In this document: piece after piece, positions 42,301-48,300 of the stretch
Layout of the letters: each line of letters begins with the position of its first letter
Numbering within the stretch: position 1 is the first letter of the stretch
Assembly: GCF_022846255.1 (NCBI RefSeq)
Contig: NZ_AP025682.1
Length of the DNA: 64,000 nucleotides
Reading direction: 5' to 3' (one strand)
Origin: Escherichia coli
GTDB taxonomy: Bacteria; Pseudomonadota; Gammaproteobacteria; Enterobacterales; Enterobacteriaceae
Position numbers: made by a program

Positions 42301-45300
42301 GCGAAACTGGGGTAGCCATGAGAATGTTCCTCCGGATGTTGTTAAACCAGCCGGTGTGGTCATGAAAACAGCGCGCCACCTTCACCGGCATAACAACCGG
42401 GGAGAAACGTAAAAAATAATCGGGAATGTGGCTGTCCGGAGATAAACGGGGGGATTGCGATGGCAGAGCCGTAGCGGAATCCCGGGGGGGGGGGGTGTTG
42501 CGAAAAGATGCTTCCGCACGCACGCGCGATAAAGAGGGGATAGTTTTCGTGAGGACAGGGAGAGAAGCAGGCGTTCTGATAATTGCAGAGTTGTTTTCGG
42601 AGGTGGTTACAGTGAGTCAGCCCGTTCCTGGCGAGCAGGAGACTGATATCACCGATGGGATAAGGTTGTCTGATTGGTATTATAAATATAAGAAGTCATC
42701 AGAGAGTAACGTAAAGGATTTGCCAGAATAACCTAAGAGAGTAAATCTCTCCGGTAACAGAGCGCTGTGAAGCATTCTGTATCAGAGTGCAGATACATGA
42801 ACGCTGATGCGTAAAATCAGCAGTGACACGCCAGCTCCCCCTATGCCCATTCCTGTATAAGACATGAACTGAGTGTATTAATGCTTCTGCCCTGAGACTG
42901 AGCCGGTGAGTGAGGGGCTGAGAAATCCCTCTTGACACAGCTCTAACCAGAAATACTTCCCCGGTTGTTGCGGTGCGTCCGGATCCCCGATAACGGAACA
43001 CTAAGGCTGTATTGCGGGACACCGGGTAAGTAGCAGCCCGTAAGGCGTTCTGTCAACGCCAGAAAAAATGATTTCCCACACGCGTTATAGACTCACTCCT
43101 GTGGACCTGGAAGCCCGTAACTCTGCGGTTGCCCACTGACTGACGGAACTGACCGCAAATTTTACGAGTGCGTGCTGGGCTTCAGTCTGGTCACCTGAGC
43201 GTTCGGTAACGGAGGCGCGGGCGGTAATAGGCTGATTTTCAGGTATTACCGGCTTACAGCGTGTGGTTGATATTGAGGGGCTGTGAGTTTCGCGTATTTG
43301 TCAGAAACCCAGACGAGTTTTCCTGTATGGGACGAAATAAGGCAGCGGCAATACCTGGAAAAATTTAATATGGTATGAAGGAGAACCTGTCGGTTACGCT
43401 TAATATACCCGGTACACTGTCAGCTCAGGGGATACATGAACCGTTATCTCACCAGCTACACAGTATATACACACTGACGCTGACAGTAGTCAGCAGGACC
43501 ACAATAATCAGTGCCAGCAGTATGGTAACGATACGGTCTGTATTCCGGTAATAGCCGAAGGGGTCGACAGAACCACAATACGGGCAACACACTGTATTAT
43601 GAGTAATCGCGTTTCCACAGTCCCTGCACTTCTTTTTGCGTATCACCATCACTCCCTCCTCACAGCCTTACCCGTAACCGGTTTTTTACATTAAAAAAAC
43701 AACGCTGAAAATTCAACCGTCAGTCCGGAGACGACCGTTCGGGTTATCACAGAGTGCCTGAGACAGTGTCCTGCCGGAGGTCACTTCAGGGACTCTGCGC
43801 ATTTTTTACGACGTGGCTATTCCGTATGAACCATACGGAGATTTAACCATGACCTACAAATACAACCCCTTCTGGCAGCAACGTATTCGTGAGACGGTGC
43901 GGCACGCACTGAATGTTCATCCCCGCCTGACGGCATTGCGGGTTGACCTGCGTTTCCCGGATGTACCGGCAGCAACGGACGCAGCTGTGATATCCCGCTT
44001 CATCAATGCCCTGAAAGCCCGAATCGACGCTTACCAGAAACGTAAGCATCGGGAAGGTAAACGCGTGCATCCCACAACCCTGCATTACGTCTGGGCCCGG
44101 GAGTTTGGGGAGTGCAAAGGTAAAAAACACTATCACCTGATGCTGCTGGTTAACCGGGATACCTGGTGTCGTGCCGGTGATTACCGTGCTCCGGGATCAC
44201 TGGCCGGGATGATTAAACAGGCGTGGTGCAGTGCCCTGGGAGTGGATGTCGGGTGCCATGCCACGCTGGTGCATTTTCCGGCCTGGCCGGCGGTGTGGCT
44301 GGAACGCGATGATGACACTGGCTTTCAGCAGGTGCTGGAACGTGCTGACTATCTGGCGAAGGAACATACCAAAGCTCACTGCACCGGTGAGCGCAATTTT
44401 GGCTGTAGCCGGAGTTGAGCACGACTGGCGCGCCAATACCCGGCAAACCAAAAGTATGGGTTGTTGTCTGGCGGCAACGATGTATCCACTCGCCCACTGA
44501 CTGTTTTTTACGTCAGTGTTCCATTGTGTGACAACCACAGTGCTGTAACAGCAACCAGCCTGCTTTACCCAAACTCCAGTCCAGATTTTAACTGAACCGC
44601 CATTCACACCCTGACCACGCTGCCCGTACCGGGACGGCTGTTGCCTGCGTGTCGTCTGGCGGCTGAGGAATATGACTATGTACGCAAAATCCTTTATCGC
44701 TCTTGATGGCAACGGACGTCTGACGGGCGCCCGTACTGCACAGGCCGCACCTTATGCTAACTACACCTGCCACTTGTGTGGCAGTGCACTCAGATACCAT
44801 CCGCAATACGACACTGAACTTCCCTGGTTTGAACACACTGACGACAGGCTGACAGAGCACGGTCAACAGTGCCCTTATGTCAGGCCGGAGCGCAGAGAAA
44901 TACAGTTGATTAAACGTCTGCAGCAATTCGTACCGGATGCCTTACCCGTGGTGCGTAAAGCCAGCTGGCACTGCAGACAATGTCACCACGATTATTATGG
45001 GGAGCGGTACTGCACACACTGCCAGACCGGAGGATTCAGTATTCCCCGGACAACTCAGGAGGAAATATGCGAATTCTGAACTGTTATATGGCGAATGACA
45101 GCAAAGGCCATTTTGTTACGGCGAAAGAAGCAGCGAAGCACAACCGCCAGGACGTTTTGTGCTGTGTGTCCTGTGGATGCCCGTTAACACTTCAGCGGGG
45201 CAATGACGGACAACCACCGTGGTTTGAACATGACCAGATGACTGTCGCTGAGAAAATCCTGCTGCGATGCACCTGGCTTGACCCGGCAGAGAAAGAGGCC

Positions 45301-48300
45301 CGTCGTTTGCATCTGCAGGGTATGACGGTTCCGGATTATACGGTGAAGGTGAGAAAGTGGTTTTGTGTGATGTGTGACGAAAATTATGAGGGGGAAAAGT
45401 GCTGCCCGAGTTGTGGTACCGGGGTATACAGCAGGGAGGGGGGGCAGGAGGGCAACTGGAAGGATAGGAACTGAGCGGTTCAGTCGCGGAAATCAGTTGC
45501 AGAGCTGTAATGATATCTCCGGGAGTGCTGCGTTGGTAGGGGCATCCCGGGATAGAGAAATTTTAGCACTTTGCCCTGAATGATTGTAGACGTCCCGAGT
45601 ACTCGTACCGGTCTGAGTTATTACAGTTAGATATTCACTTTTTCTCCCGCATACTTCACATCTGTCAACGACGGATGAAAAGTGGTTCTTCCGCAACCTG
45701 GGTGGAAGAAAATGGATGAAACTTTCTGGCGAACAAGGATCTAAGCTGTTTTAAGTTATGGGCAACGCAATGCACTCTCTTAAGACACTTCTACAGTTAC
45801 CTTGCGGATGGCGATGCAGTCGACAAATTATTAGCTCTGACGGTATAACCCTCCATCTCCACGGAAAACGCAAAACAGCACAATGTCCTGAATGCTTTAA
45901 GCGTAGCGACTCTGTTCATAGTTGTCGTCGGCGCCGGATACAGCATCTACCCTGCTCAGGGCAGACGCTATGGCTTGTATTTTCCGTCCGCCACTGGTAC
46001 TGCCGTAACCCGGCTTGTTCACGTAAAATTTTTGCCGAGTCGCTTGCTCCCTTCGCCAGTTCACACCAGCAGTCTTCACAGGCGTTACAAAATTAACAAT
46101 GTCAACTGGGATTAATAGCTGGAGGTGAGGCTGGAAAACGGGCTGCAACGGCAGTGGGTCTCCGTTGCAGTGCTGATACTCTTCTTCGCAGGCTTATCAA
46201 TACCCCGGAGACGAAACAGTCAGGCGCGCCTCATGTCGGTATTGATGAGTGGGCGTGGCATCGGGGCCACTGCTGCGGTATGTTAATAGTCAATCCTGAT
46301 ACTCACCGTCCCCTCGTCCTGCTTCCCGGCCGTGATCAGCGTACGCTGGCGACCTGGTTCAGAAAATATCCGGAAATACAGGTTGTCTCGCGTGATCGCA
46401 GTGGAGTCTATGCGACAGCAGCACGTGAAGGTGCACCTCAGGCCAGACAGGTGGCCGATCGATGGCACCTGCTAAAAAATATTGGTGATGAGCCTGAACG
46501 AATGATGTACAGACATATGCCTCTGATACGTCTTGTTGTCAGAGAGTTATCACTGAAGAAATCACCTGAGCCAGAAATATCTGTGCCTGTAGCATCGCTC
46601 CGTCGTCTGGAACGCCTTAAACAGCACATCCGCAAAAAACGGCATCAGCGTTGGACAGAGGTTATGGCCCTGCATAACAAGGGATGTAGTTTCAGGGAAA
46701 TATCCCGTATTACAGGCCTGTCGCGAGTGACAGTCAGTCGCTGGGTGGGTTCAGGAACATTCCCTGAAATGTCAACCAGGCCTCCAAAGCGAGGGCTTCT
46801 GGACCCATGGAGGGAGTGGTTAAAAGAGCAACGAGAATGTGGTAATTATAACTCCGGCCGGATATGGCGGGAAATGGTGGCCAGGGGGGTTACAGGCAGT
46901 GAAACCATCGTCAGGGATGCTGTTGCCAAATGGCATAAAGGCTGGATCCCACCGGTTACTACTGCCGCAAGACTTCCTTCAGTGTCCCGGGTAAGCCGCT
47001 GGTTGATGCCCTGGAGAATAATCAGGGGTGAAGAAAATTATGCTTTCCGATTTATTAGTCTGATGTGTGAAAAAGAACCGGAGTTGAAAATAGCGCAGCA
47101 ACTGGTACTCGAGTTCTACCGTATTCTGAAAACCTAAAATAAATCACAGCTAAGCAGCTGGTTCACTCGGGTCCACGAAAGCGGCTCAGCAGAACTTCGG
47201 TGCGTAGCTGCGGGGATGGAAGCTGATGCTGCGGCTATATGTGAGGCAATCAGCAGTCGCTGGAGTACTGGTGTTGTCGAAGGTCATGTAAATCGCCTGA
47301 AGGTGCTGATACGCCAGATGTATGGTCGAGCCGGACTTGAACTACTTAGGCGGAGGGTAATGAGTCCACTGGCATGAAAATCTTCACCTAGGTTGAGGAA
47401 GAGCCACTTTTGCACTGTTCGTGACAGTATGGCCTTTATGTACTCACTTTGTTACCGGTAGCTGGATCATCACTACCGTGCCGCAAATGGTGGTGAACAG
47501 CATCAATTGTGGAATGAATGTTGCCGAAGCGACCAATGCGCCTCGTTTCCACCATCAGTGGTTGCCGGACGAGCTGCGTGTTGAAAAGGGTTTAGTCCGG
47601 ATACGCTCAAGCTGCTGGAAGCAAAAGGTCAGAAAGTGGCGCTGAATGAGGCGATGGGCAGCACGCAAAGCATTATGGTTGGGTCGGATGGTGAGTTGTA
47701 CGGCGCATCCGACTCGCGCTTGGTGGATGATTTAACGGCGGGGTATTAATTGACATCCCCCGGCGCAATGTGCCGGGGGATAATGGTTTTATGCGGTCAA
47801 TAATCGTCCGGGATTATCGATACAGAGTTTTTTGAGGATCGTTTTATCGACGCCGCGCTCCGCCAGATAGGCCAGAAAAACATCTGGAACAAATCCCCAG
47901 CCATTACCGCCATTTTTAGCCCACATTTGTTTAAGGAAGACATCGTGGCTGAGAACAAGCTGATCGGCGTATCCCAACTCAATGAGATGAGCGACGGCAT
48001 CGGCAGTCTCCTGCACCCCTGGCGCTATTCCCTCTTTCGGGAAGGTAATGTCTAGGCCAATCATGTCGAATTCCAGCCAGACACCTTTATCAAGCATTTT
48101 CCGCTGATACGCCACGTCTTTTCCTGACGGATCCGAGTGTGCGAGAGAGACTTTATTTGGCGAGACGCCCATTTCACCTAACACAATGTCGAGTACTTCA
48201 TCACCGCGACGAAGCCAGCCCGGCATGTGAATATTCATCGCCACATGAGGATTGTTAATCTGTGCCAGCGAGGCAGCCCGCAAGCTGTTATGCTCGGCTT

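What the first reader, a model, noticed from the sequence alone, without database searches (positions are those of the whole stretch)
44672..45474. Tandem paralogous Cys/His-rich zinc-ribbon proteins
Two adjacent, slightly overlapping genes of about 135 aa each share the same motif order (CxxCG ... PWFEH ... CxxC ... Y-G-E-x-x-C-x-x-C) but have diverged in sequence. This indicates an old tandem duplication of a small nucleic-acid- or metal-binding module of unknown function inside the island.
Basis: seen in the sequence. Interest (0 to 1): 0.42.

Follow-up and report, generated by a model that had tools for sequence, protein, structure and literature searches.

The report
Paired zinc-ribbon genes in island backbone
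Two small neighbouring genes in an E. coli genomic island are real, ancient duplicates of a catalogued but unstudied zinc-binding protein family, and they always sit beside a gene that looks like a DNA-nicking replication enzyme, so they probably help process the island's DNA.

Summary
ZnR-A (44678-45079; an in-frame ATG also lies at 44672) and ZnR-B (45067-45474) overlap by 13 nt. They are 31% identical (E = 3e-15). Both carry the same two Pfam domains, DUF7828 and Zn_ribbon_11 (formerly DUF3279).

They are not fragments of one gene. Each has orthologues in Hafnia, Yokenella, Superficieibacter, Serratia and Klebsiella plasmids, with the same A-then-B order and the same overlap. dN/dS is 0.1-0.4 for both.

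The proteins are already catalogued. They are identical to RefSeq WP_000270974.1 and WP_001221623.1, and the pair occurs in 3818 of 5426 complete E. coli genomes. I found no paper on their function.

New context found here:
- Every lineage examined places the genes just downstream of a YagK/YfjJ ("inovirus Gp2") gene with conserved HUH and YxxK motifs, usually with alpA between.
- The fuller module ends with a catalytically dead Gp2 paralogue.
- One natural protein fuses a ZnR to such a dead Gp2 domain.

Best reading (about 0.4): they are zinc-binding accessory modules of the island's HUH nuclease. An A:B heterodimer was not supported by AlphaFold. Interest is low to moderate.

The parts
44678..45079 (+). 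ZnR-A, an A-type DUF7828 + Zn_ribbon_11 protein of 133 aa. An alternative in-frame ATG at 44672 would give 135 aa. Identical to RefSeq WP_000270974.1 'putative zinc ribbon protein'.
   Evidence: ORF. Pfam DUF7828 E = 2.8e-31 and Zn_ribbon_11 E = 1.3e-9. RefSeq annotation. dN/dS 0.15-0.28. Falls in the A-type clade.
45067..45474 (+). ZnR-B, a B-type DUF7828 + Zn_ribbon_11 protein of 135 aa. Identical to RefSeq WP_001221623.1 'zinc-ribbon domain-containing protein'.
   Evidence: ORF. Pfam DUF7828 E = 7.7e-31 and Zn_ribbon_11 E = 7e-18. AlphaFold pLDDT 89.2. dN/dS 0.10-0.42.
45057..45079 (+). Coupling junction: AGGAGG inside the 3' end of ZnR-A, the ZnR-B ATG at 45067 and the ZnR-A TGA at 45077-45079, giving a 13-nt overlap.
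   Evidence: Read from the sequence. The same geometry, with a GGAGG/GAGG box and a 10-13 nt overlap, is seen in Hafnia, Superficieibacter, Yokenella, Serratia and the Klebsiella plasmid.
43849..44418 (+). Gp2a, a YagK/YfjJ ('inovirus Gp2 family') protein with an HUH motif (HYH) and a YLAK motif. It is the conserved upstream partner gene. The ORF could start as early as GTG 43813.
   Evidence: Pfam YagK_YfjJ_C E = 1.3e-47 and REP_ORF2-G2P E = 6.2e-5. HYH and Y-x-x-K are present in all 9 Gp2a sequences aligned. A homologue lies upstream of ZnR in every locus with flank.
44419..44677 (+). 259-bp spacer between Gp2a and ZnR-A, containing a 7-bp-stem hairpin, CACTGAC-N10-GTCAGTG, at 44495-44518.
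   Evidence: The spacer is about 99% identical among E. coli copies. The hairpin pattern is unique in the window, with none found in 100 shuffles. It was found only in E. coli copies. Its function is unknown.
42113..42319 (-). AlpA-like helix-turn-helix regulator. Here it is displaced upstream and inverted; in most other genera it lies between Gp2a and ZnR.
   Evidence: tblastn with Hafnia AlpA gives 66% identity, E = 1e-24, at 42119-42295. RefSeq annotates it as an HTH regulator. AlpA lies beside ZnR genes.
43449..43652 (-). 67-aa protein with CxxC...CxxC and one transmembrane helix, transcribed divergently from Gp2a. It belongs to the E. coli version of the backbone block.
   Evidence: ORF translation. 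Annotated as WP_001297900.1 in all E. coli copies examined.
45758..47377 (+). ISL3 transposase pseudogene that abuts the module. It occupies the position where other genera carry the dead Gp2b paralogue.
   Evidence: RefSeq annotation, 'ISL3 family transposase, internal stop'. Gp2b follows ZnR-B in L006-L008 and L018.

Best explanation
ZnR-A and ZnR-B are two anciently duplicated small proteins, each with two predicted zinc sites.
- The N-terminal domain resembles the CoiA N-terminal zinc finger, with a CxxC...WFEH...C site.
- The C-terminal domain is a four-cysteine zinc ribbon.

They belong to the conserved backbone of tRNA-integrated, CP4-type genomic islands of Enterobacterales.

I propose that they act as accessory modules of the neighbouring YagK/YfjJ ('Gp2') HUH-type nuclease, either recognising DNA or bridging proteins. 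Made together by translational coupling, they would bind the Gp2 domain and/or a DNA structure. That would direct or control nicking of island DNA for replication or transfer after AlpA/integrase-driven excision. In CoiA, and in IS91/Helitron-type HUH enzymes, the equivalent zinc finger is part of the nuclease chain; here it would be supplied in trans.

Shown here: paralogy, domain content, conserved metal ligands, purifying selection, conserved synteny, a natural fusion to a Gp2-like domain, and the CoiA_N-like fold.

Inferred, not shown: zinc binding, physical interaction with Gp2, any DNA binding, any nicking activity of Gp2, and the biological process served.
For: 1. Synteny. In every lineage with enough flank, ZnR genes lie within about 1.1 kb downstream of a YagK/YfjJ-like gene. 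These are the E. coli window plus L016/L017, L003, L006-8 plus L018, L009, L010, L013/14, L015, L019/20 and L021/22. In L009 I detected no AlpA homologue; in the E. coli copies alpA lies upstream of Gp2a and on the opposite strand; all the other lineages have alpA beside Gp2 and ZnR.
2. Gp2a looks like an HUH enzyme. Pfam gives YagK_YfjJ_C at 1.3e-47 and REP_ORF2-G2P at 6.2e-5. HYH and YxxK are conserved in 9 of 9 Gp2a sequences. The same motifs (HVH/HIH and YLSK) appear in the divergent upstream genes of L019 and L021.
3. A natural fusion. P0191 has a ZnR at residues 1-135. Its residues 156-451 align to the neighbouring Gp2 protein at E = 5e-23. Foldseek also listed a 466-aa Serratia oryzae protein that may be a second long form.
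4. The fuller module places ZnR-B about 5-76 nt upstream of a Gp2 paralogue that has lost both the HUH and Tyr motifs.
6. The genes are real and constrained. dN/dS is 0.1-0.4 and the Cys/His ligands are invariant.
7. The overlap and internal Shine-Dalgarno sequence are conserved, consistent with coupled synthesis.
8. The family is absent from 50,697 phage records and rare on plasmids, so it is an island backbone gene rather than a phage gene.
Against: - There is no experimental information on the ZnR proteins, YagK/YfjJ, or any of their activities.
- The family's pI is neutral, with a median of 7.06. That fits a generic DNA binder poorly.
- AlphaFold of an A-linker-B fusion gave pTM 0.42, so no confident A:B interface was predicted.
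- The Gp2 domains found fused or adjacent on the 3' side are the inactive ones. That could equally mean regulation or decoy functions.
- E. coli K-12 yfjJ and yagK are, from my own knowledge of the K-12 map, not followed by ZnR genes. If so, Gp2-like proteins do not strictly need them.
- Three lineages carry only one ZnR gene (L003, L009, L013/14), so the pair is not obligatory.
- Synteny within mobile-element backbones can reflect shared descent rather than shared function.
Confidence: 0.4

Rival explanations
1. They are small zinc-finger transcription factors that work with AlpA to switch on island genes. The analogy is with Ogr of phage P2 and Delta of satellite P4; as I recall, Delta is itself a tandem duplication of an Ogr-like zinc finger. 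They would contact RNA polymerase rather than the Gp2 nuclease.
Against: No Pfam Ogr_Delta hit was listed for either protein or among the families reported for the 33 members. The Rpb9 match is not significant. The best fold matches are CoiA N-domains, not transcription factors. This reading does not predict the natural fusion to a Gp2-like domain.
Confidence: 0.2
2. They are protein-binding adaptors or inhibitors aimed at host or competitor proteins, for example anti-defence or host-takeover factors. On this view they have no direct role with Gp2, and the synteny only reflects inheritance of a backbone block.
For: Zinc ribbons often mediate protein-protein contacts, and the family's pI is neutral. 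The same islands carry antirestriction (KlcA-like), RadC and CbtA/CbeA genes. The pair sits at the boundary between backbone and cargo, and the cargo includes defence genes in L019.
Against: There is no significant PADLOC hit (the best is E = 0.035 on the ribbon only). The gene order with Gp2 and AlpA is kept across deeply divergent lineages in which the rest of the island differs. The fusion to a Gp2-like domain argues for a direct link.
Confidence: 0.15
3. They regulate the HUH nuclease negatively. Together with the dead Gp2b paralogue they would hold Gp2a inactive until induction, forming a brake rather than a targeting factor.
For: The Gp2 domains found fused to a ZnR or immediately downstream of one have lost the HUH and Tyr motifs. 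A constitutively active nicking enzyme would be harmful to the host. No basic surface is expected from the neutral pI.
Against: The E. coli copies keep ZnR-A and ZnR-B without any Gp2b. No interaction data exist. With the present evidence this cannot be separated from the best explanation.
Confidence: 0.15
4. They are decaying, functionless remnants of a cryptic element.
For: The island in the window is degraded: cbtA and the GTPase gene are frameshifted, the ISL3 copy is a pseudogene and IS elements are inserted. Many database entries for the family are truncated or chimeric.
Against: dN/dS is 0.1-0.4 for both genes at dS up to about 2. The metal ligands are invariant. Intact pairs occur in 2987 complete E. 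coli genomes. Orthologues are conserved in several genera.
Confidence: 0.05

Closest known systems
Pfam DUF7828 (PF25165) + Zn_ribbon_11 (PF11682, formerly DUF3279); RefSeq 'putative zinc ribbon protein' / 'zinc-ribbon domain-containing protein'
   Same: This is the family itself. Both proteins match both models over essentially their full length. They are identical to WP_000270974.1 and WP_001221623.1.
   Different: Nothing differs. The family has no assigned function, and neither the Pfam names nor the RefSeq product names and accessions turned up any relevant paper.
CoiA competence nuclease, N-terminal zinc-finger domain (Pfam CoiA_N, PF25164; related DUF7830)
   Different: There is no PD-(D/E)XK nuclease domain; a four-cysteine zinc ribbon follows instead. 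No Pfam CoiA_N match reaches significance (best 1.3e-3). The associated nuclease is an HUH-type gene next door, not a fused PD-(D/E)XK domain. The setting is a genomic island, not a competence regulon.
N-terminal zinc-finger modules of HUH enzymes (IS91-family and Helitron transposases). This comparison rests on my own knowledge and was not tested here.
   Same: The architecture 'zinc module, then HUH domain' is reproduced by the natural fusion P0191 and, in trans, by the gene order.
   Different: No sequence or fold relationship was tested or found. The fused Gp2 domain has lost its catalytic motifs.
Phage P2 Ogr / satellite P4 Delta zinc-finger activators
   Same: They are small zinc-binding proteins of P4-like elements. 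As I recall, Delta is also a tandem duplication.
   Different: No Pfam Ogr_Delta match was listed. The ZnR proteins have a different two-domain architecture and a different closest fold.
Rpb9/TFIIS-type and Rpb12-type zinc ribbons of RNA polymerases
   Different: The match is not significant. The first site is CCHC within a larger beta-alpha domain. The UniProt name 'DNA-directed RNA polymerase beta subunit/140 kD' given to many family members appears to be a propagated misannotation.

Membership tests
DUF7828 + Zn_ribbon_11 (DUF3279) family | Significant full-length match to the Pfam DUF7828 model | tested here: met
   ZnR-A: E = 2.8e-31, model positions 1-87 of 87. ZnR-B: E = 7.7e-31, positions 2-86 of 87. 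All 33 aligned members match.
DUF7828 + Zn_ribbon_11 (DUF3279) family | Significant match to the Pfam Zn_ribbon_11 model at the C-terminus | tested here: met
   ZnR-A: 1.3e-9. ZnR-B: 7e-18.
DUF7828 + Zn_ribbon_11 (DUF3279) family | Conserved ligand sets CxxC...F-x-H...C and CxxC...CxxC | tested here: met
   C33, C36, F53, H55, C100, C103, C113 and C116 are invariant and C68 is conserved in at least 90% of 33 sequences.
DUF7828 + Zn_ribbon_11 (DUF3279) family | Actual binding of two zinc ions per chain | not testable with these tools
   Inferred only from the ligand pattern and the confident model (pLDDT 89.2).
CoiA competence protein | CoiA_N domain match at Pfam significance | tested here: not met
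CoiA competence protein | PD-(D/E)XK nuclease domain after the zinc finger | tested here: not met
   The proteins are 133-135 aa and end in a zinc ribbon. No nuclease domain appears in Pfam or in the model.
Ogr/Delta zinc-finger activators (Pfam Ogr_Delta) | Match to the Ogr_Delta model | tested here: not met
   Ogr_Delta is not listed for either protein at E <= 10, nor among the families reported for the 33 members.
Rpb9/TFIIS-type zinc-ribbon proteins | Significant sequence or fold match | tested here: not met
Known anti-phage defence or toxin-antitoxin systems | Match to a PADLOC model, or a toxin/antitoxin pair architecture | tested here: not met
   PADLOC gives no hit for ZnR-A and E = 0.035 on the ribbon only for ZnR-B. 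The two genes are paralogues of each other, unlike the two genes of a toxin-antitoxin pair.
Phage gene families (PHROGs; phage genomes) | Presence in phage genomes or phage protein families | tested here: not met
   No PHROG hit below E = 0.03. No tblastn match in 50,697 phage records.

The most novel reading that the evidence does not exclude
The conserved block Gp2a (HUH) - AlpA - ZnR-A - ZnR-B - dead Gp2b would be a so-far undescribed DNA-processing machine. An HUH nuclease would be guided or gated by CoiA_N-like zinc modules supplied in trans. This machine would replicate or mobilise the extremely common CP4-type genomic islands of E. coli and other Enterobacterales, which lack conjugation genes and whose mode of transfer is unclear.
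Probability: 0.2. Interest if true: 0.6.

Novelty: already known. Interest (0 to 1): 0.27.

Why it matters
These two genes, together with the adjacent Gp2-like gene, are present in about 70% of complete E. coli genomes, often in several copies. They lie in islands that carry virulence, metabolic and defence cargo. Nobody knows what the backbone genes do or how such islands move.

If the zinc-ribbon pair proves to be the targeting or control subunit of an HUH nuclease, it would give a concrete, testable handle on island replication and mobilisation. It would also assign a function to a Pfam DUF and to the N-terminal zinc finger of CoiA. As it stands, the finding is a correct description of an already catalogued family of unknown function.

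Tried and rejected
- **One frameshifted gene:** rejected. Each ORF carries the complete two-domain architecture and has separate orthologues.
- **Chance similarity:** rejected (E = 3e-15).
- **Curated family, defence or phage libraries:** NCBIfam gave no hits for either ZnR or for Gp2a. PADLOC gave none of significance. PHROGs gave none for the ZnR proteins.
- **Literature:** searches for DUF3279, DUF7828, Zn_ribbon_11 and PF11682 found nothing, and the searches for Ybl85, 'putative zinc ribbon protein' and the two WP accessions returned only two unrelated papers. Papers that mention inovirus Gp2, YfjJ or YagK only list the gene.
- **Structural neighbours with known function:**
  - Foldseek against AFDB50 showed only family members among the 50 listed hits.
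  - The PDB sequence profile search gave a marginal Rpb9 hit only, and Gp2a had no PDB relative by sequence.
- **A:B heterodimer:** AlphaFold2 was run on A-(GGGGS)6-B. The alignment held 6 true pairs, 3 deliberately chimeric pairs used to anchor divergent A-types, and unpaired sequences. The result was pTM 0.42 with the linker disordered, so no confident interface was predicted. The test is weak and does not refute a complex.
- **alpA remnant in the 259-bp spacer:** none. alpA is at 42119-42295 on the minus strand.
- **RNA families in 41000-47000:** none.
- **Repeats or iterons around the module:** only the echo of the gene duplication itself, the PWFEH-coding 19-mer at 44817 and 45212, plus short matches at chance level. 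The promoter and terminator scan was at background.
- **Spacer hairpin as a conserved origin:** found only in E. coli copies, so it is not supported as a family-wide feature.
- **First attempt at a genome scan:** the 33-sequence alignment was too divergent for the tool. The narrower alignment returned only 8 loci.

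
Full report
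**1. The observation**

The region holds two same-strand ORFs.

- ZnR-A runs from ATG 44672 or 44678 to the TGA at 45077-45079. RefSeq uses 44678. Orthologues start MYAKSF, and GAGGAA lies 8 nt upstream of 44678, so 44678 is the likelier start (133 aa).
- ZnR-B's longest ORF begins at 44980. The real start is ATG 45067, preceded by AGGAGG at 45057-45062. It ends at 45474 (135 aa).
- The genes overlap by 13 nt.

BLASTP of one against the other gives 31% identity over 118 residues, E = 3e-15. Both match Pfam DUF7828 over essentially the whole model (E about 1e-31) and Zn_ribbon_11 (1.3e-9 and 7e-18).

**2. Not a split gene, and the duplication is old**

Each protein has the full two-domain architecture. 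A deep HMMER search of 1.84 billion representative proteins found only 278 clusters at E <= 0.001, so the family is small.

In an alignment of 33 full-length members, C33, C36, F53, H55, C100, C103, C113 and C116 are invariant, and C68 is nearly so. That fits one CCHC site and one CCCC site.

Tandem A-then-B pairs with a 10-13 nt overlap and an internal Shine-Dalgarno sequence occur in:
- Hafnia paralvei (L006)
- Superficieibacter (L007)
- Yokenella (L008)
- Serratia oryzae (L005)
- a Klebsiella IncFIB/HI1B plasmid (L018)

.

A neighbour-joining tree puts all A-types in one clade and all B-types in another. A third 'C-type' clade and several single-copy types also appear. Between E. coli and Hafnia/Superficieibacter/Yokenella, A orthologues are 59-61% identical and B orthologues 48-52% (51% and 46% to Serratia), against 31% for A versus B. 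dN/dS is 0.15-0.28 for A and 0.10-0.42 for B, at dS up to about 2. Both are therefore real genes under purifying selection, and the duplication predates the spread of the module among these genera.

**3. What it is in database terms**

The window is E. coli chromosome. The two proteins are identical to RefSeq WP_000270974.1 ('putative zinc ribbon protein') and WP_001221623.1 ('zinc-ribbon domain-containing protein').

- The pair is found in 3818 of 5426 complete E. coli genomes, with a median of 2 and up to 7 places per genome. There are 8349 chromosomal places against 7 on plasmids.
- tblastn finds nothing in 50,697 phage records. Only 32 of 72,556 plasmids carry it, mostly large Klebsiella plasmids.
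- NCBIfam and PHROGs have no model for it, and PADLOC has no significant hit.
- Full-text searches for the family names, RefSeq product name and accessions found no relevant paper. Papers that mention the neighbouring 'inovirus Gp2 family protein' only list it.

The object is already catalogued, but its function is unknown.

**4. Structure**

AlphaFold2 of ZnR-B with the 33-sequence alignment gave pLDDT 89.2 and pTM 0.60. The model has a beta-beta-alpha-beta-beta-beta N-domain, two helices, and then a three-stranded ribbon.

- Foldseek against AFDB50 showed only the family itself among the 50 listed hits. Many entries carry the odd name 'DNA-directed RNA polymerase, beta subunit/140 kD subunit'.
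- Consistently, 7 of 33 members give weak Pfam CoiA_N hits (best 1.3e-3) and 6 of 33 give weak DUF7830 hits.

CoiA is a PD-(D/E)XK nuclease required for resolving transformation D-loops and has a small N-terminal putative zinc finger (bioRxiv 10.1101/2024.02.06.579203). So the DUF7828 domain has the fold of a zinc module that, in CoiA, sits in front of a nuclease. The family's median pI is 7.06, so it is not a typical basic DNA binder.

**5. Genomic context**

In E. coli the conserved block has this order: Ag43, YeeP-like GTPase, YfjI, a 200-aa hypothetical protein, an AlpA-like HTH regulator, (Hha), a 67-aa zinc/TM protein, Gp2a, ZnR-A, ZnR-B. Variable cargo follows. In the window an ISL3 pseudogene abuts ZnR-B.

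Outside E. coli, every lineage with enough flank has a YagK/YfjJ-like gene upstream of the ZnR gene or genes. An alpA gene lies next to them in all of these lineages except L009, where none was detected:

| Locus | Gene order |
|---|---|
| L003 | AlpA - Gp2 - ZnR fusion |
| L006-8, L018 | Gp2a - AlpA - ZnR-A - ZnR-B - Gp2b |
| L009 | Gp2 - ZnR |
| L010 | Gp2 - AlpA - ZnR-A ... ZnR-C |
| L013/14 | Gp2 - AlpA - ZnR |
| L015 | AlpA - Gp2 - ZnR ... ZnR-A |
| L019/20, L021/22 | Gp2-like - AlpA - ZnR - ZnR |

.

Gp2a matches Pfam YagK_YfjJ_C (1.3e-47) and the replication-protein domain REP_ORF2-G2P (6.2e-5). All nine Gp2a sequences keep an HUH-type HYH motif and a Y-x-x-K motif. The divergent upstream genes of L019 and L021 keep HVH/HIH and YLSK.

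The gene that follows ZnR-B in the fuller module, Gp2b, is a paralogue that has lost both motifs.

One natural protein, P0191 (454 aa), has a ZnR at residues 1-135. Its residues 156-451 align to the neighbouring Gp2 protein at E = 5e-23, again with the HUH and Tyr positions lost. Another, P0082, has an extra DUF7828 domain fused in front of a full ZnR.

**6. Mechanism**

Three independent lines tie the ZnR proteins to a nuclease-type partner:
- strict synteny with an HUH-like gene across lineages whose other content differs;
- a fusion to a Gp2-like domain;
- fold similarity of the N-domain to the zinc finger that precedes the CoiA nuclease.

My best explanation (confidence about 0.4) is that ZnR-A and ZnR-B are zinc-binding accessory modules of the island's YagK/YfjJ HUH enzyme. 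They would be made together through translational coupling. They would bind the Gp2 domain and/or a DNA structure, and so target or gate nicking of island DNA for replication or transfer after excision.

Not shown: zinc binding, any interaction, any DNA binding, any Gp2 activity.

A direct test of an A:B complex was uninformative. AlphaFold2 on a linker fusion gave pTM 0.42.

Rivals:
- AlpA-associated transcription factors, analogous to Ogr/Delta (0.2). There is no Ogr_Delta match, and only a marginal Rpb9 hit at E = 0.03.
- Adaptors or inhibitors aimed at host or competitor proteins (0.15).
- A brake on Gp2a acting with the dead Gp2b (0.15). Present data cannot separate this from the main model.
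- Functionless remnants (0.05). The selection data contradict this.

**7. Comparison, novelty and score**

The proteins are members of the DUF7828 + Zn_ribbon_11 (DUF3279) family, and all defining features tested were met. They are not CoiA proteins: they have no nuclease domain, and the CoiA_N match is below significance. They do share the fold of CoiA's N-domain. They are not Ogr/Delta proteins, not PADLOC defence proteins and not phage proteins.

The genes themselves are already known and very common. What this analysis adds is:
- the conserved five-gene module;
- the dead Gp2b paralogue;
- the ZnR-Gp2 fusion;
- the structural link to CoiA_N.

A specialist would not be surprised by two paralogous DUF genes in an E. 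coli island. The module could, however, become a useful entry point to the unresolved question of how CP4-type islands replicate or move. Interest is 0.27.

Noticed in passing
L006:7426-8061, L007:7426-8058, L008:7426-8037, L018:7493-8059 (no counterpart in the window; ISL3 pseudogene at window 45758-47377): In Hafnia, Superficieibacter, Yokenella and a Klebsiella plasmid, a second YagK/YfjJ-like gene ('Gp2b') directly follows ZnR-B. It has lost both the HUH histidines and the YxxK tyrosine, so it looks like a catalytically dead paralogue. E. coli copies lack it.
   Followed up: partly
L003:2797-4161 (protein P0191); L019:7001-7717 (protein P0082): Two natural fusions exist. P0191 is a ZnR joined to a full-length but motif-less Gp2-like domain (E = 5e-23 to the neighbouring Gp2). 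P0082 is an extra DUF7828 domain joined to a complete ZnR.
   Followed up: partly
window 44419-44677 (hairpin 44495-44518): The 259-bp spacer between Gp2a and ZnR-A differs at only 3 positions between the window and L017, although ZnR-A has dS = 0.24 between the same two copies. It contains a 7-bp-stem hairpin, CACTGAC-N10-GTCAGTG, found only in E. coli copies. This could reflect constraint (a promoter or nick site) or recombination mosaicism.
   Followed up: partly
window 43449-43652 (-): A 67-aa ORF with CRDC...CPYC and a C-terminal transmembrane helix is transcribed divergently from Gp2a. It is annotated as hypothetical (WP_001297900.1) in the E. coli copies examined. It is another small zinc-ribbon protein in the same backbone block.
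   Followed up: no
L019:5494-6213 and L021:5547-6143: The genes upstream of alpA in these loci have no Pfam hit on record. They are nevertheless divergent YagK/YfjJ-like proteins with HVH/HIH and YLSK motifs (hmmsearch E about 1e-7; phmmer E about 1e-15 to the L003 Gp2). Pfam coverage of this HUH-like family is therefore incomplete.
   Followed up: partly
window 53378-58316: The island cargo comprises aspartate ammonia-lyase, a C4-dicarboxylate transporter, an aspartate/glutamate racemase and a LysR regulator. It resembles orf7-orf9 of the Shigella SRL pathogenicity island, which also carries YfjJ/Gp2, Hha, AlpA and unnamed ORFs in the same order (PMC6980539).
   Followed up: no
AFDB hits to the ZnR-B model: Many UniProt entries of this family are named 'DNA-directed RNA polymerase, beta subunit/140 kD subunit', and others 'Ybl85' or 'Competence protein'. 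The RNA polymerase name has no support here and looks like a propagated misannotation.
   Followed up: no
window 26360-26733, 35471-36342, 39505-40874, 45758-47377: The island is decaying. RefSeq annotation of the identical sequence marks cbtA and the YeeP-like GTPase gene as frameshifted and the ISL3 transposase as having an internal stop. An IS150 copy is inserted in the backbone.
   Followed up: no
L005:531-926: The Serratia oryzae ZnR-A orthologue has lost the third cysteine of the C-terminal ribbon (…YGERYYLICH…). More generally, A-types have a less conserved ribbon tail (GGFS/GEYS/GDDS instead of GIYS). This hints at sub-functionalisation of the A copy.
   Followed up: no
L004 and L011 (contigs of a 'Collinsella sp.' MAG): Contigs assigned to a Collinsella metagenome-assembled genome carry copies 97% identical to the E. 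coli genes. This is almost certainly binning contamination rather than presence in Actinomycetota.
   Followed up: no
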